Source of the DNA: a virus
Taxonomy: Duplodnaviria; Heunggongvirae; Uroviricota; Caudoviricetes
Virus record (IMG/VR): IMGVR_UViG_2537562020_000004
Direction: 5' to 3' (one strand)
DNA: 26,889 nucleotides
Shown here: piece by piece, positions 3,473 through 22,691 of the stretch
Layout: the number at the start of each line of letters is the position of its first letter
How positions within the stretch are numbered: the stretch's first letter is position 1
Made by a program: the position numbers and the translations under genes
The notes under the pieces: model-generated
What the model was told of the DNA's origin: nothing
What the model saw: the letters and a program-made list of their open reading frames with translations, nothing else
Databases searched by the model: none

Positions 3473-4513
3473 TTAATCTTTCCATTTAAAACCATTACAT
3501 AATGTTAAAGGATTAAATGTTACAGCCTCCTCAAGATGATCCGGGGAGAAATGTGCATACTTCATAGTTTCACGAATATTCGCATGACCGAGTATACGTT
3601 GCAGCACAAGAATATTCCCGCCATTCATCATAAAATGAGCGCCGAAGGTATGACGCAGAACGTGTGTCTTTTGCCCTTCCGTCAGTTCGATATCCGTTAG
3701 TTTGAGCATCTTTTTAAACTCCTGATAGCAAGGCTTAAACATCTTTCCCTGCCTTTCAGATAATTCGTCATACAACCATTTTGGGATCGGAACGGTTCGA
3801 TTCTTTTTCCCTTTCGTTTTGGTGAAGGTCAGTTTATGTGGCGAGAGCTGGGGACGTGTCAACCTCTCAGCCTCACCCCATCTAGCACCTGTTGCAAGAC
3901 AAATCTTAACAATCATGGTGAGGTCTTCTTTTCCGTATTGCTCGCATGCCTGAAACAATTTCGGAATTTGAGACAAAGTGAGCCAAGACATTTCTTTCTC
4001 GGCTTCCTTGAAAACACGGACTCCATCAAGTGGATTTGGTAAGCTCCACTCCCCTAGCCTTTTGAGCTCATTAAATACAGCCTCAAGATATTGTTGCTCA
4101 CGATTGACAGTTATCGGTTTAGCAATCCATTTTGCCGGGTCTTTATGATAGCCATTATCTATCTCCCCCCGAAGTCGGCGGTCACGGTAATGAGCCCAAT
4201 CTTTAGCAGTAAGGCGGGATGCAATAGGGTCACCAAGTCCATTACACACGATTTGAAGTTTAGCTAACCGCGACTTACTGGCGACCAGTGCCTGTCCGTG
4301 TAAATTATGCCAAAGCTGGATAATCTCACTTAAGCGTCGGCGGTCTTCTTTCTTGCCGAGCCACGGCTTATCCTCACTCTCACTTTTCGTAAATGCTTCG
4401 AATGCCTCGGCCTCACCTTTGGTATTGAATTGCCGACGTATACGCCGCCCTTCTCGACCATTTGGATAGAGCTCGCATAACCATTTGCCATTTTTTTGCT
4501 TACTTACAGTCAT
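3473..4513 (-). CDS. int: Phage integrase, tyrosine recombinase (346 aa)
   Basis: C-terminal catalytic region HVLRHTFGAHFMMNGGNILVLQRILGHANIRETMKYAHF typical of tyrosine recombinases (R..H..R..Y); located at the prophage end next to the repressor. Confidence 0.9.
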   Translation of the reverse strand: MTVSKQKNGKWLCELYPNGREGRRIRRQFNTKGEAEAFEAFTKSESEDKPWLGKKEDRRRLSEIIQLWHNLHGQALVASKSRLAKLQIVCNGLGDPIASRLTAKDWAHYRDRRLRGEIDNGYHKDPAKWIAKPITVNREQQYLEAVFNELKRLGEWSLPNPLDGVRVFKEAEKEMSWLTLSQIPKLFQACEQYGKEDLTMIVKICLATGARWGEAERLTRPQLSPHKLTFTKTKGKKNRTVPIPKWLYDELSERQGKMFKPCYQEFKKMLKLTDIELTEGQKTHVLRHTFGAHFMMNGGNILVLQRILGHANIRETMKYAHFSPDHLEEAVTFNPLTLCNGFKWKD

Positions 4514-7805: not shown

Positions 7806-10028
7806 TTGGCTGTTCAATTCGCTTATCCGTGGAACGTCCCACGGTCGGCAATCTCCAGCCCATACCTTACTTATGAGCAACAGCATCGCCGCGACCGTAT
7901 GTTCGCGGCTTTGCTGCATGCAAAAAAGGGGCTTTCTCTCCAGCCCGACTGCGTGCGGTTAGATGTTTATCGCACTGCTGCGGTGCTGGAACAAAATCAG
8001 GGTAGTCAACGAGCCAATGCATTTTTAATCAGCTTCTGCAAAAAGGCATTGCCGCGTCTTGAACTGGTCGCAAAAAAATCCGAATGCGCTGGTATCAACA
8101 GCAAGGTATCAACCGCTGTTTTTGGAAGTCATTTTGATACTCAGCAAATGCAATATCTGTCGTCACGCATGGTTAATATGGTCGCCCGATATAACCGTCT
8201 CCCGGACATGTCGCGCGCTGATGTTGACCTGTTGGCCGCTGATATTGCTAATTTCATTCGTGGTGAACTTGCCAACATTAATGACCACGGATTCGGCGAG
8301 CTTAAAACGCTGTACACCTGGTATATTCGTGCTGGCTTTATTTCCCTCCAATTCAACGTTATCCCACCACATTGGGAGCGGGTTGAAAAAAAATATGTCG
8401 GTGCGGATGAAATCGCACCGGCTATCGCCAAAATGTTTAACGATGGGGGGTGGCGCGGTCGTTTGCGCCGTGTAGCAGCTACGTGGCGCGAACACCTGCA
8501 AATTGCAGTCGGCAACGTCAGTAAGAAAAAAAACACTTACGCGAGTAAAAACTGCGTGACTGACTGGCGTGAACAAAAGCGCCGCACTCGTGAATTTCTC
8601 AAAGGTCTGGATCTCGAAGACGAAGACGGCAACCGTATCAGCCTAATTGAAAAATATGATGGCTCAGTTGCTAACCCTGCGATTCGCCGCTGTGAGCTCA
8701 TGACCCGCATTCGTGGGTTTGAAAACATCTGTAATGAGCTCGGTTATGTCGGTGAGTTTTACACTCTAACCGCGCCGTCAAAATATCACGCCACGACTAA
8801 AGCCGGTTACCGTAACAGCAAATGGAGCGGTGCCAGCCCGGCTGACACGCAAAACTATCTAACCGGTATCTGGGCGCGTATCCGTGCCAAACTACATCGG
8901 GAAGATGTCCGTATTTTCGGTATTCGTGTCGCCGAGCCCCATCACGACGGCACTCCACACTGGCACATGCTGATGTTCATGCTGCCGGAAGATGTTGAAT
9001 ATGTTCGCTCCATCGTCCGTAAATACGCATGGAAAGAAGACCGCCACGAACTGAAAAGCGATAAATCCCAAAAAGCACGTTTCCACGCGGAGTCCATTGA
9101 CCCGGAGAAAGGCAGCGCAACCGGCTATGTTGCTAAATACATTTCAAAAAATATCGACGGTTATGCTCTCGATGGTGAAACCGATGATGAAAGCGGTGAG
9201 CTGCTGAAAGAGACAGCCCCCGCCGTTTCAGCATGGGCTGCGCGCTGGCACATCCGTCAGTTTCAGTTTATTGGTGGTGCGCCGGTGACGGTTTACCGTG
9301 AGTTGCGTCGCCTCGCTGATACCGAAACCGCGCACGGTCTGAGCGTTGAGTTTGCCGCCGTCCATGATGCCGCCGACGCTGGTGACTGGGCTGGTTATGT
9401 TAATGCTCAGGGTGGGCCGTTTGTCCGTCGCGATGATTTACAGGTGCGCACACTGTATGAACCGCGTACCGAGCTTAATCAGTACGGTGAGGAAACGGTA
9501 TGTATTAAGGGGGTCTACGATTCCTCCATAGGTGCAGGAAGCCCGATTTTAACCCGGCTCACTCAGTGGAAGATTGTTCCGAAGCGTGCTGTTGATTTGG
9601 CCGTTGACCTTCAGGACGGCAAAGCCGTCCCTCGGAGTTCTGTCAATAACTGTACGGGAAGCGAAAGCGATCCACCGATACTGGATTTAACAAAACCACT
9701 GAGTCGGCGTGAAAGACGAGAATTGACCAACCGACTCAGGAAGCAAAAGCCAGCAGCACGGCGAAAATTCATCCACGGAACGGATGAGCAAAACGCAGCT
9801 ATAGCTAAAACTATCGATGAGATACATCTGACAACCGGCATTAATATCAGCCGGGGCGAAGCCCTGCACCTGATGGCCGGTGGTAAAAGTTGTTTTGATG
9901 GTAAATGGCTACGCGGAACGGCCAAAGGAGAAATATTTTCCGCAGCACCATCGCATGAGGCTAAAGCTCGGAAAATCCTTAATCGTGTTGCGGCGATGGC
10001 TGAAGCATCAAAACCAATACATGAGTAA
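7806..10028 (+). CDS. A: Replication initiation protein A (rolling-circle endonuclease), 740 aa; start codon uncertain (TTG at 7806 or ATG at 7899)
   Basis: Conserved block YTLTAPSKYH...RVAEPHHDGTPHWHMLMF...GYVAKYISKNIDGYALDG characteristic of P2 gpA / 186 A. Confidence 0.9.
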   Translation: MAVQFAYPWNVPRSAISSPYLTYEQQHRRDRMFAALLHAKKGLSLQPDCVRLDVYRTAAVLEQNQGSQRANAFLISFCKKALPRLELVAKKSECAGINSKVSTAVFGSHFDTQQMQYLSSRMVNMVARYNRLPDMSRADVDLLAADIANFIRGELANINDHGFGELKTLYTWYIRAGFISLQFNVIPPHWERVEKKYVGADEIAPAIAKMFNDGGWRGRLRRVAATWREHLQIAVGNVSKKKNTYASKNCVTDWREQKRRTREFLKGLDLEDEDGNRISLIEKYDGSVANPAIRRCELMTRIRGFENICNELGYVGEFYTLTAPSKYHATTKAGYRNSKWSGASPADTQNYLTGIWARIRAKLHREDVRIFGIRVAEPHHDGTPHWHMLMFMLPEDVEYVRSIVRKYAWKEDRHELKSDKSQKARFHAESIDPEKGSATGYVAKYISKNIDGYALDGETDDESGELLKETAPAVSAWAARWHIRQFQFIGGAPVTVYRELRRLADTETAHGLSVEFAAVHDAADAGDWAGYVNAQGGPFVRRDDLQVRTLYEPRTELNQYGEETVCIKGVYDSSIGAGSPILTRLTQWKIVPKRAVDLAVDLQDGKAVPRSSVNNCTGSESDPPILDLTKPLSRRERRELTNRLRKQKPAARRKFIHGTDEQNAAIAKTIDEIHLTTGINISRGEALHLMAGGKSCFDGKWLRGTAKGEIFSAAPSHEAKARKILNRVAAMAEASKPIHE

Positions 10029-10756: not shown

Positions 10757-10966
10757 ATGCATCGACTACCGGGCGAAATTCCGCAGCACAAAACTAAAAG
10801 CATCAAACTGATGGCCATCGTTCATCGTCTGCAGCAGATAATGGTCAATGAGAATTTGACACCCGCCGAGCTGGTCGGGTGTGCCGAAATAGTCAGGGAT
10901 AATTACGGCAAGCTGGATAGCATCAGCAAGCCGACACATTACTCACCGCCACCACGTCGACCATAG
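10757..10966 (+). CDS. Hypothetical protein (69 aa) flanked by repeats R1 and R2
   Basis: ORF with RBS GAGGG 7 nt upstream of ATG; no recognisable family. Confidence 0.4.
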   Translation: MHRLPGEIPQHKTKSIKLMAIVHRLQQIMVNENLTPAELVGCAEIVRDNYGKLDSISKPTHYSPPPRRP

Positions 10967-10968
10967 AT

Positions 10969-11037
10969 AACGCCGCCGGAGCTGAAACTCGCTTTCAGGT
11001 CTGGCGGGGTTGAACAACGAGCTACGCGAGGCGTTAG
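10969..11037 (+). repeat. 69 bp hairpin-containing element R2 (direct repeat copy 2)
   Basis: Aligns with R1 with ~8 mismatches; same position relative to the preceding stop codon (TAG 10964-10966). Confidence 0.6.
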
Positions 11038-11099
11038 CCGGTCATAGCGTCGCAAATACTTCAACCGTCTGCTGGTTAAATAATTCGAGGTTTTTGGAC

Positions 11100-11294
11100 A
11101 TGCAAAATCCCCTTTCATCGAAAAATGACCCGTTTGCCGATTGGGCAAAGAATCTGACTTTAATGGCTTTAAATAACGACCTGAGCTCTCGCGAGGTGGA
11201 AAGCTACACCGCAAAAATGGTCGGGCAGGCCGGTAAAGATGAGCTATCAGTCGTTATCAAACACCTGTTAAATCACATCAGAATGCGCAAATAA
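11100..11294 (+). CDS. Hypothetical protein (64 aa)
   Basis: ATG 11100 with GAGG ~10 nt upstream; the longer track ORF (11010) would start inside R2. Confidence 0.4.
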   Translation: MQNPLSSKNDPFADWAKNLTLMALNNDLSSREVESYTAKMVGQAGKDELSVVIKHLLNHIRMRK

Positions 11295-11310
11295 GAGGAA
11301 CTATATAAAT

Positions 11311-11412
11311 ATGTTATCTCTCGTTTATGAAAATCCGTGGACGACGATTTTTCTGATGATTGTTGCCAGCATGTGCCTCAACAGTGTTATTGGCGCATTG
11401 CGCGGCCATTAA
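11311..11412 (+). CDS. Putative small hydrophobic peptide (33 aa, MLSLVYENPWTTIFLMIVASMCLNSVIGALRGH)
   Basis: Short ORF with AAGAGGA 11 nt upstream, one predicted TM-like segment, followed ~20 nt later by an intrinsic terminator; below the ORF-track size cutoff. Confidence 0.25.
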   Translation: MLSLVYENPWTTIFLMIVASMCLNSVIGALRGH

Positions 11413-11433
11413 TCGCGACAAAACCAGACTAAA

Positions 11434-11461
11434 ACCGGCACCCTGAATGCCGGTTTTTTTA
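11434..11461 (+). terminator. Rho-independent terminator ending the rightward early/SOS gene block
   Basis: Stem ACCGGCA/TGCCGGT (7 bp), 7 nt loop, followed by TTTTTTT. Confidence 0.7.
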
Positions 11462-11620
11462 TGCCATTTTTCCGCGAATTTCCCGTTTTTTAGTCGTGCA
11501 TGCATCAGGTGCATGGTTTTGCATGCGTCAGTCTTGCCCGTTCTGTCCGTGCGCCGCCAGAGCTAGCGCGGATCCAGAGTTGTCATGCAACTGCATTAAA
11601 ACCGCCCCATAAAGCGGGCA

Positions 11621-11639
11621 GGCGTGGCGGGGAAAGCAT
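11621..11639. other. cos: cos site (cohesive-end sequence GGCGTGGCGGGGAAAGCAT, phage 186-type)
   Basis: Exact 19-mer recalled as the 186 cohesive end (P2 differs at 2 positions); located between the early-operon terminator and the portal-side genes, as expected in a P2-family prophage. Confidence 0.6.
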
Positions 11640-11858
11640 TGCGCGCCAGCAGTGATGCGTAATAATAAAAATTATCCTCTGAGCGCGTCGTGATGGCGCT
11701 GTCGTGGTCGCTGCTGGTTCGTTGGTGGTCGAGTGTGTTCGTGCGCGTGAGACGCATCTGATGCGTGATGGTGGTGTGCATGGAAAAGCCACCAGGAGCA
11801 GCGGCTTTACAGGAGTGGCAGGATTCAAACTGCTAATTATGTTTCTACTATGATTAAA

Positions 11859-12863
11859 CTAATTTACATGTATGTAGAGTTCACCGTCGCCAGACCAATC
11901 GGGACACTCTAAAACAAGCCCAAACTGCTTGAATATTTCATCAATGATTATTGTTATCTCCCGAAAATCACCAAAACCTGTAATGTGCTGGTCATTAAAC
12001 TTCCCATAAAGATTCTGAAAAGCAATGCCTAATTCTGATAATTGATATCTTATCTTTGAGTTGGATAGTGTAAGGGATAGCTTTGGATCGTATTCTTTAA
12101 TATTGATGTTTAGAGAATGGACATAACCCATCGCATAAGCATAAGAGTTGATGATTAGCCTGATACGTTTTTTTACTTCAAGATACATGTCATTCAGAGA
12201 AATATTACCGTACTTATAACCCCAGATGAGTTTTTCAATCTCGTCAGATACTTCATTTACAACAGTGTCAAGATTCTCTAAAAATAAATCGACAGTTTCT
12301 TGAGGGGCAGACCCCGAAGACATGTAATTAGCGAGATATTCAGACCATGCACGCGTGGCTGAGATAAGAAGCGCGCTACCATACTCGTTGACTGTAAAGT
12401 TTTGGGCTAAGCATGTTAGTAAGTTTTTTTCATGTACGTGCACTAATTCATGGTGAATGCGATGGATGACTGCGAGGTATCCTTCTTCTTTCAGTTTTAA
12501 GAAGCTACCATCATTGAAAAGCTCAACAAAAAAATCAATCGATAGCACAAGGGTATATTCTTCATATAGCCCATCATTGCCAATTTTTGTTACTAACTGC
12601 CCGACGGCTGCGCCCTGTTTGCTATTGGTAAATGAACTAGGGGATTTGTGTTGGTAAGAGGATGTTACCTTTTGAAGAGCTTCACTGAAGTTATAGGAAA
12701 CAATCACGCATTTTAATTTGGAGATATCAAGATTGAGATTCTTTGTTAAAGCTCGGATAGCTTCTAGTGTGAAATTACCGATATTATTTGCTTCTTGCTC
12801 AGTAGCGAAACCTTCGAGGGTTATTTTAAAATCAGTTTCCAAAATATTAATCTCCGCGCCCAT
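11859..12863 (-). CDS. AT-rich hypothetical protein (334 aa) with HExxH motif (HELVH); cargo gene between portal gene and cos
   Basis: Long ORF with AT-biased composition contrasting with adjacent phage genes; HRIHHELVHVHE at aa 135-146 (nt ~12438-12452); co-directional with Q/P. Confidence 0.7.
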   Translation of the reverse strand: MGAEINILETDFKITLEGFATEQEANNIGNFTLEAIRALTKNLNLDISKLKCVIVSYNFSEALQKVTSSYQHKSPSSFTNSKQGAAVGQLVTKIGNDGLYEEYTLVLSIDFFVELFNDGSFLKLKEEGYLAVIHRIHHELVHVHEKNLLTCLAQNFTVNEYGSALLISATRAWSEYLANYMSSGSAPQETVDLFLENLDTVVNEVSDEIEKLIWGYKYGNISLNDMYLEVKKRIRLIINSYAYAMGYVHSLNINIKEYDPKLSLTLSNSKIRYQLSELGIAFQNLYGKFNDQHITGFGDFREITIIIDEIFKQFGLVLECPDWSGDGELYIHVN

Positions 12864-12940
12864 TGTTTTGATATTCGATGCACTATAGCTTTCGCAGATT
12901 GCATCTTCAATAATGAGCGCAGAGATTGTGGCGGCCTAAG

Positions 12941-13987
12941 TTATTCTGGGTTGTCGAGGGTGTACTCTTTGAATCTGATGACCTCCATGCCGAGCCAGTC
13001 ATTTACCTCCCTGAACCTGTCCTGTAGCGGCGACAGCTCGTTGCGCACAAATACCTTTGCCACCTTCTCAACATCACCGAGTGAACCGATATTCTCGGGC
13101 TTGCCGCCCATGAGCTGGAACGGTACGCGGTGCGCGTCCATCAGATCGGCGGCACTGGCCTTCTTGATGTTGAAAAAGTCATCCTTTGTGGCGACCTCGC
13201 TCAGTGGCACGATTTTGATGCCGTCCGGTTTTCCGCCGGGAGCGTAGAAAAACAGGTTCTTAAAGTTGCCGAGCCCTTTTGAGTTGCGCATCGCCTCGCG
13301 CAGCGATTCGACGTCGGTCGCGCTCTGCGCCGGGTCAGTCACATACATGATGTAGCCTGCGTGCGCGCCGTTCTGATAATACTTGCGGCGGAACAGCGTC
13401 GCGGATTCATTCAGCCAAGCGGAATTAAGCGCGCTGAGATATTCCGGCAGACCGTAAATCTCCTGATTAATGTCGGGCTCCAGCAGGTGAAACACGGTAT
13501 CAGGCGCGAACTCGTGCGGCTGGGGGAAGTTTTCCACAAACCAGAAAATCGAATCGTCGACTCCGCGTCGGGTGTATTTGGCTGGCGAGGCCAGCAGTTT
13601 GATTAACTGGCCGGTGACGCTGTGGCGCTGCTCAAGAAAGGCGTTACCGAACACCAGATAATCGAGCGCAAAGCGGCTGAAATCCTGACGGGATAACAAC
13701 GGGTGCGGAATGTAGGTGCTCGCGAGCACGTTACGCTTAACATAAATTGGCGAGCTGTGATGCACGGCAGAGCGCAGGCTCTTTGCCAGCCCTGAGAAGC
13801 TGACCGGCGGCTCGTACCATTTGCCGTTACTGATGCACTCGACGTAATCCAGAATGTCGCGCTTATCGAGTACCGGCACCGGCTCGCCGAAGGTGAACGC
13901 TGTCGTTTTTGGCGGTGCGCTGGCGGTCAGTTGTTGTGGTTTGCTGGCCTTTTGTGCGTTGGCTTTACGGGATTTTTGTTTACCCAT
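12941..13987 (-). CDS. Q: Portal protein (P2 gpQ-like), 348 aa
   Basis: Size, position next to large terminase and cos, basic N-terminus MGKQKSRKANAQ typical of P2-family portal proteins. Confidence 0.9.
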   Translation of the reverse strand: MGKQKSRKANAQKASKPQQLTASAPPKTTAFTFGEPVPVLDKRDILDYVECISNGKWYEPPVSFSGLAKSLRSAVHHSSPIYVKRNVLASTYIPHPLLSRQDFSRFALDYLVFGNAFLEQRHSVTGQLIKLLASPAKYTRRGVDDSIFWFVENFPQPHEFAPDTVFHLLEPDINQEIYGLPEYLSALNSAWLNESATLFRRKYYQNGAHAGYIMYVTDPAQSATDVESLREAMRNSKGLGNFKNLFFYAPGGKPDGIKIVPLSEVATKDDFFNIKKASAADLMDAHRVPFQLMGGKPENIGSLGDVEKVAKVFVRNELSPLQDRFREVNDWLGMEVIRFKEYTLDNPE

Positions 13988-13988
13988 T

Positions 13989-15758
13989 TTAGTTGAACTC
14001 CAGAATAGATTTAGGCTGCATGCCGCTACCGGCAGAAAGCGGTTCGTTTAACAGGGCGTGCATGGTCGCCCATGCGATATCGGCGTGGCTGGCTTCCTCG
14101 GTGCGGCTGGCCTCATAGGTGGCGCAGCGCCCGCTGCTGGTCATGGTTTTGCGGATGGACATAAACGACTGCGTGACGTCGGTTGCTCCGGCGTCGTACT
14201 CCAGACAGCCACGGCGAATGGTGTCTTTCGCCTTGAGTACCATTGCGGTTTTCATTTCAGGTGTGTAACGGATGCCGCGTGCCGCCGGGTAAAATGAGCG
14301 CACCAGCTGGAACACGCCGAGACCGAGGCCGGTTGCGTCAATGCCGATGTATTCGACGTTGTATTTCTCGGTCAGCTTGCGGATGCCCTCTGCCTGTGCT
14401 GCAAAATCCATGCCCTTCCACTGGTGGCGCTCCAGCATGCGGAACTTGCCACCAGAGACCACCGGCGGCGCGAGCACGACGCACCCGGCACTGTCGCCGG
14501 TGTGTGACGGGTCGTAGCCAATCCAGACAGGACGAGAGCCGAACGGATGGTCGGCGAACGGGGCAAAGTCCTCCCATTCCTCCATCACATCGACCATGCA
14601 GCGCTGCAGCTCCTCGAACGGGAATACCGACGCTTTATCGTCGACAAACTCGCACATAAACAGGTTCTTAAAGTCCTCATCACTGTTTTCGCGTTTGAGC
14701 TGGTCGAGGTCGAACAGGGTGCAGCCACCCGCAAGGGCGTCCTCAATGGTGACAATCTGCCGCCACTGGCCATCGTCGCAGAGCTGGCCACCGGCGAGCG
14801 CGCTGTGACTGATGTCGATTTCGATGCGGTCGGCAATCCGGCTGCGCCCCTTGTTGAACAGCTCGCCAGACCAGAAGGGGTAAGCGCCGTGCGCCAGCGT
14901 GGAAGGTGTCGAAAAATAGGTCGAGCGCAGGTGCTTTTGCGAGGCCATGCCCGAGGCGACTTTGCGCAGTTTCTGAAAATTCGGGATCCAGAATATTTCA
15001 TCGACATACAGATCGCCGTTATGGCTCTGCGCGGTGTTGGAATTGGTACCGAGAAAAATCAGTTTTGCGCCGTTGTTACCGATGACAATCGGGTCGCCAG
15101 TCAGGTCAACGTCGACCAGTCGCGCAAACTGGATGATGTATTCGCGGAACACGTAAGCCTGCGTTTTACTGGCTGATAAAAATATCTGGTTATGGCCGGT
15201 TTTGAGTGCGCGCAGCAGTGCCTCGCGGGAGAAATAGAATGTCGCGCCAATCTGGCGGGATTTGAGAATGTCACGAATACGGTGCTCCAGTCCTGCGCGG
15301 TACCACTGCAACTGGTACTCGAAAGACTGGTCGAAAAATAATTCCTCTAGTTTATCGATAGCCTCGTCGCTGAAAAAATTCTTTTTCGGCTTTTTGCGCT
15401 CCCCTTTGTTGCGGTTGGCGACGTTGGGGTTAAGGTCGGCTTCGTTGCCGGTCTGGCTGTAGCGGTTGACTCGCGCCAACCGTTCAATCTGCCGTCCGAG
15501 CAGGTCAATCTCTTTGAAATCACCCCCTGTCTTTTGCGGCTTGGCGATGAGCTGAATCAGCCTGGCCTCAAGGCTGCTTTCAACGCGGGAAATCGGCGCG
15601 ATGCCGTCCCAGCCGTCGCGCTGCTTCCAGCTCTGCACGGTCGGGCGCTTGACCTGCAGCATTTCGGCAATCTGTGGCACGGAAAAACCCTGCCAGTAAA
15701 GCAGCGATGCCTGCCGTCGCGGGTCATGCAACAAGGTTGTATCGGTGGAAATGGTCAT
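13989..15758 (-). CDS. P: Terminase large (ATPase) subunit (P2 gpP-like), 589 aa
   Basis: 589 aa, divergent from the scaffold/capsid operon, nucleotide-binding region (ATFYFSREALLRALKTGHNQIFLSASKTQ), P2 gpP-like organisation. Confidence 0.9.
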   Translation of the reverse strand: MTISTDTTLLHDPRRQASLLYWQGFSVPQIAEMLQVKRPTVQSWKQRDGWDGIAPISRVESSLEARLIQLIAKPQKTGGDFKEIDLLGRQIERLARVNRYSQTGNEADLNPNVANRNKGERKKPKKNFFSDEAIDKLEELFFDQSFEYQLQWYRAGLEHRIRDILKSRQIGATFYFSREALLRALKTGHNQIFLSASKTQAYVFREYIIQFARLVDVDLTGDPIVIGNNGAKLIFLGTNSNTAQSHNGDLYVDEIFWIPNFQKLRKVASGMASQKHLRSTYFSTPSTLAHGAYPFWSGELFNKGRSRIADRIEIDISHSALAGGQLCDDGQWRQIVTIEDALAGGCTLFDLDQLKRENSDEDFKNLFMCEFVDDKASVFPFEELQRCMVDVMEEWEDFAPFADHPFGSRPVWIGYDPSHTGDSAGCVVLAPPVVSGGKFRMLERHQWKGMDFAAQAEGIRKLTEKYNVEYIGIDATGLGLGVFQLVRSFYPAARGIRYTPEMKTAMVLKAKDTIRRGCLEYDAGATDVTQSFMSIRKTMTSSGRCATYEASRTEEASHADIAWATMHALLNEPLSAGSGMQPKSILEFN

Positions 15759-21815: not shown

Positions 21816-22691
21816 CTAGCCTCGTAAATATCGTTTAGTAAATTTCGTGTTTGGTCTGGATGATAGGATTTGTCTTTCTATTTCACTATCACAGTCTATA
21901 TAGTCTAGTGTATTAGCTTCTATAAGTTTGTTCACGTCAATATTTTTTGCATCGATTATGTTGGCATTTCTAAGGTTTGCATTGGTGTATTCCACTTTAT
22001 CCAAATCACACTCTCTGAGTACGCAACTTTTCATTTCCGCATTGGAAAAATCCCCACCATATAAATAGCAGCCTTCAAAAATAACACCGTTTAACTTTGA
22101 ATCCTGAGCTTTAATATTTTTTATTTTACACTTTATAAATTTTACGTTTTTCATTTTGCTCTTGCTAATATTTAATGCCTGGATTGTACATCCAGTGAAA
22201 GAACAGTCTCTTATGTTAGATTTTTCCATATTTAACCCAGATAGTTCTGAGGTTTTAAAGTGTAAGTATTTAATGGTAAAAAGGTCACCCAACTCCATTC
22301 TGGGTATGTCTATATTGAAGACACCTTTATTGTTGAGCTGTCTTATTATTTTTATTTTTTGTATTTTCAAATCAACATTAACGTGCTTAGCTAAGTTTCC
22401 CAAATCCTCAAGAAGTTCATTAATCGTTTCTTTGTTTTGTCTTCTGTATTCAAAGTAATAAAGGATGACACCTAATACAAAAAAATCCAAAATGGATGAA
22501 TTTGCATTTATTAGGAACCCAGACAGGAATGAATCATTGTAATTACCATAGTGTATAGAGGCAAGTGTTACGCCAAATGCATATAAAATAAAAATAATAA
22601 ACACGTGCTTCATTTTGCATAAGGATTGTATTATTGGTTTTATGGCATCAATTTTGTTCATTGCTGCAGCAGCGAAAGATTTAAAAGTCAT
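21816..22691 (-). CDS. AT-rich membrane protein (291 aa) with two N-terminal TM helices and C-terminal pentapeptide repeats; cargo gene between S and V
   Basis: AT-biased ORF antiparallel to the tail genes; hydrophobic segments HVFIIFILYAFGVTLASI and ILDFFVLGVILYYF; ~14 consecutive 5-residue repeats with central hydrophobic residue (SKMKN VKFIK CKIKN ... ANLRN ANIID). Confidence 0.7.
   Translation of the reverse strand: MTFKSFAAAAMNKIDAIKPIIQSLCKMKHVFIIFILYAFGVTLASIHYGNYNDSFLSGFLINANSSILDFFVLGVILYYFEYRRQNKETINELLEDLGNLAKHVNVDLKIQKIKIIRQLNNKGVFNIDIPRMELGDLFTIKYLHFKTSELSGLNMEKSNIRDCSFTGCTIQALNISKSKMKNVKFIKCKIKNIKAQDSKLNGVIFEGCYLYGGDFSNAEMKSCVLRECDLDKVEYTNANLRNANIIDAKNIDVNKLIEANTLDYIDCDSEIERQILSSRPNTKFTKRYLRG

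What the first reader, a model, noticed from the sequence alone, without database searches (positions are those of the whole stretch)
11859..12863. AT-rich HExxH-motif orphan gene in the cos-proximal variable locus (between portal gene Q and cos)
In P2 and 186 the portal gene sits next to cos; here a 334-codon gene of clearly foreign, AT-rich composition is inserted between them, co-directional with Q/P. The cos-proximal region of P2-family phages (where P2 carries tin and old) is a known hotspot for anti-phage cargo. The protein carries a zinc-metallopeptidase-like HExxH motif (HELVH, aa 138-142) but matches no family I recognise, so it may be an undescribed single-gene defence or lysogenic-conversion factor.
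Basis: partly seen in the sequence, partly recalled or inferred. Interest (0 to 1): 0.8.

Follow-up and report, generated by a model that had tools for sequence, protein, structure and literature searches.

The report
Uncharacterised zinc-peptidase cargo gene in prophage
A 186/P2-like prophage carries, between its portal gene and cos, a foreign AT-rich gene for a previously undescribed family of soluble zinc metallopeptidases that travels alone in mobile-element defence and anti-defence loci, and is most plausibly an untested single-gene phage-exclusion factor.

The parts
11859..12863 (-). Cargo ORF: 334 codons from ATG 12863, or 327 from the probable true start TTG 12842. Encodes a 37.9-kDa, pI 5.0 soluble gluzincin-like metallopeptidase.
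12438..12452 (-). Codons for H138-E139-L-V-H142, the HExxH zinc-binding and catalytic motif on predicted helix 126-148.
   Evidence: Invariant in 70/70 superfamily members. Codon positions read.
12339..12341 (-). Codon for E175, the putative third zinc ligand, within W173-S-E-Y-x-A178 on predicted helix 160-185.
   Evidence: E175 70/70, W173 64/70, Y176 65/70, A178 68/70. Helix assignment.
12882..12910 (-). Sigma-70 promoter-like site TTGAAG-17-TATAGT in the 77-nt Q-to-cargo spacer.
   Evidence: Consensus scan only. Hexamers are invariant in 6 relatives, including the 90%-identity PKF8 variant. Function not shown.
12852..12855 (-). GGAG Shine-Dalgarno-like sequence 9 nt upstream of TTG 12842.
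11785..11808 (-). Hairpin AAAGCCGC-loop-GUGGCUUU followed by UCC. It is the counterpart of the 186 tW terminator, now downstream of the cargo gene.
11795..12940 (.). The 1,146-bp insertion relative to phage 186 (between the portal stop codon and the tW/cos region).
   Evidence: The same slot is occupied in Citrobacter and Escherichia sp. relatives.
11621..11639 (.). cos cohesive-end sequence (equivalent to 186 nt 1-19).
12941..13987 (-). Portal gene (186 W / P2 Q homologue), directly upstream and co-directional. Included for context.

Best explanation
The ORF is a functional, horizontally acquired cargo ('moron') gene of a 186/P2-like prophage. It encodes a soluble cytoplasmic zinc metallopeptidase of the gluzincin type. 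The proposed active site has H138 and H142 (HExxH) plus E175 as zinc ligands, E139 as the general base, and possibly Y243/Y247 on the invariant-G246 helix stabilising the transition state. It is the first recognised member of an uncharacterised family, about 320-340 aa long, that moves as a solitary gene among mobile-element conflict loci.

The most likely role is phage exclusion by proteolysis. In this view the protease is made in the lysogen from its own promoter and stays latent. A superinfecting phage then either activates it to cleave an essential host factor, aborting the infection as Lit does with EF-Tu, or supplies a protein that it cleaves directly.

Shown: gene integrity, insertion structure, motif invariance, fold class, purifying selection, solitary mobile distribution.
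Inferred: zinc binding, peptidase activity, expression in the lysogen, the defence role, and the trigger and target.
For: Enzyme class:
- Only H138, E139, H142, E175 and G246 are invariant in 70 sequences at about 20% identity.
- HExxH and E175 lie on consecutive predicted helices after a 4-stranded sheet, in a model with pLDDT 90.3 and pTM 0.89.

Functional gene:
- dN/dS is 0.19 at dS 0.30.
- The gene is intact and occupies the same slot in E. coli, another Escherichia species and Citrobacter.
- The 5' region is conserved.

Cytoplasmic: maximum KD(19) is 1.19, and there is no signal or TM segment.

Defence role (contextual):
- It lies inside the gpA-gpQ hotspot, where 3 of 8 newly cloned systems and old-tin protected against phage.
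- Other insertions at the same Q-cos junction include a DGQHR-motif protein cassette.
- Distant homologues are solitary genes beside type II CBASS (45 bp after the SAVED effector gene), an RT/PRTase/HEPN island, NB-ARC STAND plus HEPN, Gabija, Shedu plus a TIR-like gene, AbiO/Nhi, and a type I R-M/VspR/helicase island.
- No partner gene is conserved across these loci.
Against: - There is no experimental phenotype.
- It has no PADLOC match and was not among the P2-hotspot systems tested.
- Only about 8 of about 22 non-P2 contexts have a recognised defence system within about 8 kb, and no background rate was computed. Some contexts are housekeeping (PutA, ABC transporter) or uninformative.
- Two homologues sit beside the anti-restriction gene ArdC.
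- No terminator was found between Q and the gene, so it should also be transcribed with the late P-Q operon. That would fit a lytic-phase role equally well.
- The gene is pseudogenised in some lineages.
Confidence: 0.5

Rival explanations
1. Counter-defence (anti-defence) protease. The enzyme would degrade or inactivate a host immune protein to help the phage or plasmid that carries it establish itself or replicate.
For: - Two independent conjugative-element homologues lie directly beside ArdC (ArdcN + MPTase-PolyVal) and KlcB.
- Another lies next to MobC/NikA-like relaxosome genes.
- In the window the gene sits after Q with no intervening terminator, so it should be co-transcribed with the late genes.
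- Defence and anti-defence genes share islands, so the defence-island neighbours do not discriminate.
Against: - In both ArdC loci the gene is transcribed divergently from ArdC-KlcB, not as part of that operon.
- Late-operon expression is poorly timed for neutralising host immunity at entry.
- Many homologues are chromosomal, in islands with no obvious phage or plasmid backbone.
- The P2 gpA-gpQ hotspot is so far documented mainly for defence and maintenance cargo.
Confidence: 0.2
2. Another accessory role not aimed at phages. Examples are an ImmA-like regulatory protease that cleaves a repressor or antitoxin, a toxin-like growth modulator, or a lysogenic-conversion factor altering host physiology.
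For: - HTH or Xre-type genes lie near some homologues, and TA genes near others.
- About a quarter of P2 hotspots carry non-defence cargo such as partitioning systems or CDT.
- Recurrent pseudogenisation could reflect a dispensable or costly function.
Against: - No HTH partner is conserved, and there is none in the window.
- There is no M78 similarity.
- The lack of a signal peptide argues against a secreted virulence factor.
- The distribution from marine Gammaproteobacteria to Bacillus and Bradyrhizobium argues against a host-specific virulence role.
Confidence: 0.15
3. A core morphogenetic or regulatory gene of this phage lineage, for example a head-maturation protease co-expressed with terminase and portal.
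For: It is co-directional with and immediately downstream of P-Q, inside the late transcription unit.
Against: - It is absent from 186, PSP3 and almost all related phages. Only 1 of 50,697 phage records carries it.
- The junction is empty in 34 of 42 relatives.
- Its composition is foreign.
- Homologues occur outside phages.
- Some prophage copies are frameshifted.
Confidence: 0.02
4. A decaying or catalytically dead remnant with no current function.
For: There are frameshifted copies (L011; TW10598; 113-aa and 106-aa cluster members; the fragment families phrog_28537 and phrog_30021).
Against: - The window copy is intact.
- dN/dS is 0.19-0.3.
- All catalytic residues are invariant over very large distances.
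- Intact copies are seen on hundreds to thousands of contigs in E. coli and Salmonella.
Confidence: 0.05

Closest known systems
Lit (e14 prophage 'cell death peptidase', MEROPS U49 / Pfam PF10463)
   Same: Prophage-encoded, solitary, about 300-aa cytoplasmic HExxH peptidase. The local motif is even similar (Lit LHHEISHV, here IHHELVHV). From established knowledge, Lit is the precedent for single-gene proteolytic phage exclusion: cleavage of EF-Tu triggered by the T4 Gol peptide.
   Different: There is no homology beyond 15 columns around the active-site helix (hhalign probability 16%), and no Pfam hit even at E<=10. The trigger and target here are unknown. It works-like at best and is not a member.
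Gluzincin catalytic domains of clan MA(E): M1 aminopeptidases, M30 lugdulysin/hyicolysin, M9 collagenases, M4 thermolysin
   Different: Sequence identity is 8-13%. There is no sequence or profile hit to any Pfam or PDB family, and Foldseek is not significant. The His-to-Glu spacing is 32-41 residues (33 here), whereas the M1 and thermolysin motifs are HExxH-x18-E and HExxH-x19-E (spacing here; M1/M4 values from my own knowledge). There is no GxMEN exopeptidase motif. The protein is a compact single-domain cytoplasmic protein with its own C-terminal helical bundle.
ImmA/IrrE (M78) peptidases of phages and mobile elements, including the 'Peptidase + TM' P2-hotspot candidate pFR104 of Rousset et al. 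2022
   Same: HExxH peptidases that are frequent in prophages. One was cloned from the same P2 hotspot.
   Different: M78 proteins are about 160 aa and pair with an HTH repressor or TM partner. Here there is no profile similarity (probability 4%) and no partner gene.
Cargo of the P2-like gpA-gpQ hotspot (old, tin, retrons, DUF4238 and others; Rousset et al. 2022, PMC9122126; PMC13586616)
   Same: The same inter-core-gene hotspot adjacent to cos, AT-rich cargo, and rapid turnover. The arrangement that probably contains this protein (WP_001622301, by inference) is listed as 'hypothetical' in their Table S5A.
   Different: In the cloned P2 loci the cargo sits on the gpA side of cos. This gene sits between the Q stop and the terminator/cos, a sub-site occupied in only 8 of 42 surveyed relatives. 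It has never been tested.

Membership tests
Gluzincin (clan MA(E)) zinc metallopeptidases | HExxH motif (two His zinc ligands plus a catalytic Glu) on an alpha-helix | tested here: met
   H138, E139 and H142 are 70/70 invariant and lie in predicted helix 126-148.
Gluzincin (clan MA(E)) zinc metallopeptidases | Third zinc ligand is a Glu on a following helix, 18 or more residues downstream | tested here: met
   E175 is 70/70 invariant, lies in predicted helix 160-185, and is 32-41 residues after the second His across the family. Ligand geometry itself was not measured.
Gluzincin (clan MA(E)) zinc metallopeptidases | Thermolysin-like catalytic fold (N-terminal sheet plus active-site helices) | tested here: inconclusive
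Gluzincin (clan MA(E)) zinc metallopeptidases | Zinc binding and peptide-bond hydrolysis | not testable with these tools
   Requires purified protein (metal analysis and a protease assay with H138A, E139A and E175A mutants).
M1 aminopeptidase family | Pfam Peptidase_M1 match, GxMEN exopeptidase motif, HExxH-x18-E spacing | tested here: not met
   No Pfam hit at E<=10. There is no MEN motif in the sequence. The spacing is 33 residues here and 32-41 in the family.
Lit / Peptidase U49 (PF10463) | Sequence or profile homology to Lit | tested here: not met
   No Pfam hit. hhalign of the family profile against E. coli K-12 Lit gives probability 16% over 15 columns only.
Lit / Peptidase U49 (PF10463) | Phage-peptide-activated cleavage of a host translation factor causing abortive infection | not testable with these tools
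   Needs infection assays and substrate identification.
ImmA/IrrE M78 peptidases (PF06114) | M78 domain and an adjacent HTH/Xre partner | tested here: not met
   No Pfam hit. hhalign against the pFR104 M78 peptidase gives probability 4%. The neighbours in the window are the portal gene and cos.
Known or candidate anti-phage systems (PADLOC-DB v2.0.0) | Match to any of the 5,027 defence protein models | tested here: not met
   0 families at E<=10.
P2-like gpA-gpQ hotspot cargo (Rousset et al. 2022) | Located between replication gene A and portal gene Q, adjacent to cos, and variable between related phages | tested here: met
   Gene A is at 7806-10028, cos at 11621 and Q at 12941-13987. The gene is present in 26 of 5,426 E. 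coli genomes and 1 of 50,697 phage records.
P2-like gpA-gpQ hotspot cargo (Rousset et al. 2022) | Demonstrated anti-phage activity | not tested
   It was not among the cloned systems, and no paper mentions its accessions.
Phage 'moron' (autonomous cargo transcription unit) | Deviant base composition, own promoter, downstream terminator | tested here: inconclusive
   Composition is met: 37.6% against about 56% GC. A promoter-like site and a tW-like hairpin are present, but only as consensus matches.

The most novel reading that the evidence does not exclude
This is the founding member of a new single-gene anti-phage immunity family. A 37-kDa stand-alone gluzincin would combine sensing (the C-terminal helical bundle) and proteolytic effector activity in one polypeptide. 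It would be mechanistically analogous to Lit but evolutionarily unrelated, and spread by phages, conjugative elements and defence islands from Enterobacterales to Firmicutes.
Probability: 0.4. Interest if true: 0.7.

Novelty: new variant of a known kind. Interest (0 to 1): 0.55.

Why it matters
Protease-based phage exclusion by a single protein is known mainly from Lit, a decades-old example. A second, unrelated and much more widespread family would broaden that class. It would also offer a compact system (one gene of about 1 kb, with clear catalytic-dead controls) for asking how a protease senses infection and what it cuts.

Whatever its role, the work defines a family of at least 129 clusters that has no Pfam, NCBIfam or PADLOC model, with a clear signature: HHE[LF]xH[VI]H[DE] ... 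WSEYxA ... YxxG[YH]. That could be turned into an annotation model.

It also shows that 186-like phages have a second cargo sub-site, between the portal stop codon and the terminator/cos, distinct from the classical P2 position on the gpA side of cos.

Tried and rejected
- **Sequence libraries.** Pfam, NCBIfam, PADLOC and PDB (single sequence and 70-sequence profile) gave no family. PHROGs gave only 'unknown function' families, two of which are fragments of pseudogenised copies.
- **Fold searches.** Foldseek against BFVD and PDB gave nothing significant. The afdb50 library was not installed, so AlphaFold DB neighbours could not be examined.
- **Lit and M78 membership.** Both rejected by hhalign.
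- **Rousset's 'Peptidase + TM' candidate.** This is a 161-aa M78 protein and is unrelated.
- **Conserved partner gene.** None found across about 22 contexts. The apparent operon partner in L096 is PutA, a housekeeping gene. The L105 downstream genes (207 and 1,503 aa) have no Pfam match.
- **Rfam.** Nothing credible in 10900-13300.
- **Literature.** No paper mentions the protein's accessions or PHROG, and searches on HExxH or zincin defence found nothing relevant. The supplements of PMC13586616 are not held.
- **Core phage gene hypothesis.** Rejected on distribution.
- **Failed call.** One Pfam call failed because of wrong coordinates for side loci.
- **Model geometry.** The model coordinates are not exposed, so zinc-site geometry was not measured.

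Full report
**1. The observation**

The ORF at 11859-12863 on the minus strand is present as described: 334 codons, ATG start, and co-directional with the portal gene Q (12941-13987) and the terminase gene P (13989-15758). HELVH occupies residues 138-142 and is preceded by another His. GC content is 37.6%, against 55.6% for Q, 57.1% for P and 50.4% for the window.

The window is a 186-like (Peduoviridae) prophage next to yfiB and is 100% identical over this gene to E. coli JKHS016. BLAST against phage 186 places cos at window 11621. 186 nt 1-175 align to 11621-11794, and the 186 portal gene W resumes at 12941. So 11795-12940 (1,146 bp) is an insertion exactly between the portal stop codon and the counterpart of the 186 tW terminator (hairpin 11785-11808).

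The probable true start is TTG 12842, giving 327 aa. The evidence is a GGAG 9 nt upstream, RefSeq's use of this start (WP_247209034.1), homologues that mostly begin ME.D at this point, and low model confidence for residues 1-7.

**2. How unusual the position is**

Among 50,697 phage records only vB_EcoM-613R3 carries the gene. 186, PSP3, SEN1, EtG and the Yersinia and Salmonella relatives match both flanks and skip it. It is present in 26 of 5,426 complete E. coli genomes, always once and always chromosomal.

I surveyed 80 IMG/VR loci encoding a related portal. In 42 the cos core 11-mer could be located. Of these, 34 have it 170-182 bp after the Q stop (empty state) and 8 carry insertions:
- this gene, frameshifted into three pieces (L011);
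- a small 74-103-aa gene in 5 loci (labelled DUF2188 in Rousset's Table S5A);
- an AT-rich two-gene cassette (L007);
- a DGQHR-motif protein plus a partner (L081).

Close relatives in Citrobacter amalonaticus and another Escherichia species have the gene in the same slot (Q, gene, cos, gpA).

In the P2 loci cloned by Rousset et al., the order is Q stop, terminator, cos, cargo. So this is a distinct and rarer sub-site of the published gpA-gpQ hotspot.

**3. What the protein is**

No Pfam, NCBIfam, PADLOC or PDB sequence match exists. PHROGs gives phrog_11743, of unknown function, plus two fragment families.

It is not an orphan. There are 78 close homologues (42-99% identity, 323-347 aa) in Enterobacterales, Shewanella, Psychromonas and others. 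An exhaustive phmmer search found 129 clusters at 50% identity with E<=1e-3, mostly 310-340 aa. These extend to Bradyrhizobium, Paracoccus, Hyphomicrobium, Pseudomonas, Bacillus, Paenibacillus and Brevibacillus. All are annotated 'hypothetical', and none of 70 members matches a Pfam family convincingly.

In the close family, H137, H138, E139, H142, E145, N147 and W173-S-E-Y-x-A-N179 are invariant. In 70 members at about 20% identity, the only invariant columns are H138, E139, H142, E175 and G246. W173 (64/70), Y176 (65/70), A178 (68/70), an acidic residue at 145 (67/70) and Y243 (55/70) are nearly so. The second-His-to-Glu spacing is 32-41 residues. This is the gluzincin signature.

The AlphaFold2 model is confident (pLDDT 90.3, pTM 0.89). 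It shows a four-stranded sheet with two helices, then helix 126-148 carrying HExxH, helix 160-185 carrying E175, and a C-terminal helical bundle (188-313) closed by a small hairpin.

The protein is acidic (pI 5.0), 37.9 kDa, and has no hydrophobic segment (maximum KD 1.19), so it is cytoplasmic. dN/dS is 0.19 at dS of about 0.30 and 0.3-0.5 at very low divergence, which indicates purifying selection.

**4. Membership in named families**

- **Lit** (fetched from e14) aligns to the family profile over only 15 columns of the active-site helix, with probability 16%. It is not a member, although it is the closest functional analogy.
- **M78/ImmA.** The pFR104 peptidase from the same hotspot gives probability 4%, and there is no HTH partner here.
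- **M1.** No Pfam hit, no GxMEN motif, and the wrong ligand spacing.

**5. Genomic company**

Outside the P2-like phages the gene is always solitary, and its neighbours change every time.

Clear defence neighbours:
- type I R-M HsdR, an Xre antitoxin and VspR plus helicase in Psychromonas marina;
- a complete type II CBASS (HTH + M78 regulators, SMODS, ThiF, JAB, SAVED), with the homologue 45 bp downstream on the same strand;
- an RT, PRTase-CE, MC2/CTD6, AAA_21 and HEPN-MNT island;
- NB-ARC/TPR STAND plus HEPN_Swt1 plus a resolvase;
- Gabija GajA/GajB;
- Shedu SduA plus an adjacent divergent TIR-like gene in Colwellia;
- AbiO/Nhi in Bacillus;
- DpdF-like helicases.

Mobile-element or TA neighbours:
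- a Kosakonia prophage edge with YafO;
- MobC/NikA plus an SMC-like ATPase plus an IS in Paracoccus;
- a resolvase;
- a HigBA-like TA, a SprT-like protein and a T4SS coupling protein;
- a STAND-like AAA ATPase plus a group II intron RT in Vibrio.

Two conjugative-element loci share ArdC plus KlcB transcribed divergently from the homologue. Some contexts are uninformative or housekeeping.

This is suggestive guilt by association, with roughly 8 of about 22 contexts holding a recognised system. It is not a statistical test, because no background was computed.

**6. Regulation (inferred)**

A sigma-70-like site (TTGAAG-17-TATAGT, 12910-12882) lies in the 77-nt spacer after Q and is invariant in six relatives. 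This is a consensus match only. No terminator-like site separates Q from the gene, and a tW-like hairpin follows it. The gene could therefore be expressed both autonomously in the lysogen and by read-through of the late P-Q transcript. No Rfam family is present.

**7. Interpretation**

- The enzyme assignment (soluble gluzincin-type zinc peptidase, new family) is well supported, at about 0.9.
- The biological role is inferred. Phage exclusion by proteolysis, analogous to Lit, is the best fit to the hotspot, the solitary and mobile distribution and the defence-island company (about 0.45-0.5).
- A counter-defence protease is the main rival (about 0.2), supported by the ArdC neighbours and late-operon placement. 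It is weakened by the divergent orientation to ArdC and by the many chromosomal island contexts.
- Other accessory roles come to about 0.15.
- A core phage function or a dead remnant is essentially excluded by distribution, selection and motif conservation.
- Frameshifted copies in some lineages fit dispensable or costly cargo.

**8. Prior knowledge**

Rousset et al. list hotspot arrangements that include WP_001622301, labelled 'hypothetical'. This is probably the older accession of this protein, which is my inference from its position next to neighbours of known accession. It was not among the eight cloned P2 systems. No paper in the library mentions any of its accessions or its PHROG.

**9. 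Verdict**

This is a real, intact, selected cargo gene for a novel gluzincin family, sitting in an unusual sub-site of a known defence hotspot. The zincin assignment and hotspot location are right. The claims that it is an 'orphan' and M78-like are wrong, its comparison with where P2 keeps cargo needs the sub-site correction above, and the defence function remains untested.

Novelty: a new variant of a known kind. Interest: 0.55.

Noticed in passing
window 21816-22691 (-): A second AT-rich cargo gene (GC about 31% at 22001-22500). It is a 291-aa pentapeptide-repeat protein (Pfam Pentapeptide_4, 3.9e-19) inserted between the tail/virion-morphogenesis genes and baseplate gene V.
   Followed up: partly
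window 2511/2547-3356 (+): An AT-rich (31-32% GC) ORF of 269-281 aa with no Pfam match, lying between yfiB and the prophage integrase (3473-4513). It may be cargo at the attachment-site end of the prophage.
   Followed up: partly
window 11596-11781 (-): RefSeq annotates a 61-aa 'hypothetical protein' (WP_000557532.1) here. The ORF spans the cos cohesive end (11621-11639) and DNA homologous to non-coding 186 sequence, so it is probably a spurious gene call.
   Followed up: no
L011 7125-8126; E. coli TW10598 (H32); cluster members P0211, P0213: Pseudogenised copies of the peptidase gene: three ORF fragments in L011, a 1,004-bp match annotated as two CDS in TW10598, and 113-aa and 106-aa proteins seen on 40 and 18 contigs. 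phrog_28537 and phrog_30021 are families made of these fragments.
   Followed up: partly
L007, L008, L014, L015, L035, L036, L081 (downstream of the portal stop): Other cargo at the same Q-stop/cos junction: a small 74-103-aa gene (DUF2188 in Rousset's table), an AT-rich two-gene cassette (272 aa plus a 241-aa protein with a hydrophobic N-terminus), and a protein carrying the DGQHR motif plus a 322-aa partner.
   Followed up: partly
L104 1012-8041: A distant homologue lies 45 bp downstream, on the same strand, of the SAVED effector gene of a complete type II CBASS operon with CapH/CapP-like HTH + M78 regulators. It could be an accessory gene of that operon.
   Followed up: no
L106 5448-8128 and L108 3039-5748: Two independent conjugative-element loci share the same arrangement, with the homologue transcribed divergently from ArdC (ArdcN + MPTase-PolyVal) and KlcB. 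This is the only recurrent neighbour seen.
   Followed up: no
L002 2947-3888 (-) and L109 1084-2025 (-): Phage vB_EcoM-613R3 and E. coli strain 222 carry an extra 942-bp hypothetical gene (WP_001622299) on the gpA side of cos that is absent from this window. The two sides of cos therefore vary independently.
   Followed up: no
L105 8028-13441: A distant homologue is followed on the same strand by a 207-aa gene and a 1,503-aa gene. Neither has a Pfam match, and they may form an operon of unknown function.
   Followed up: partly
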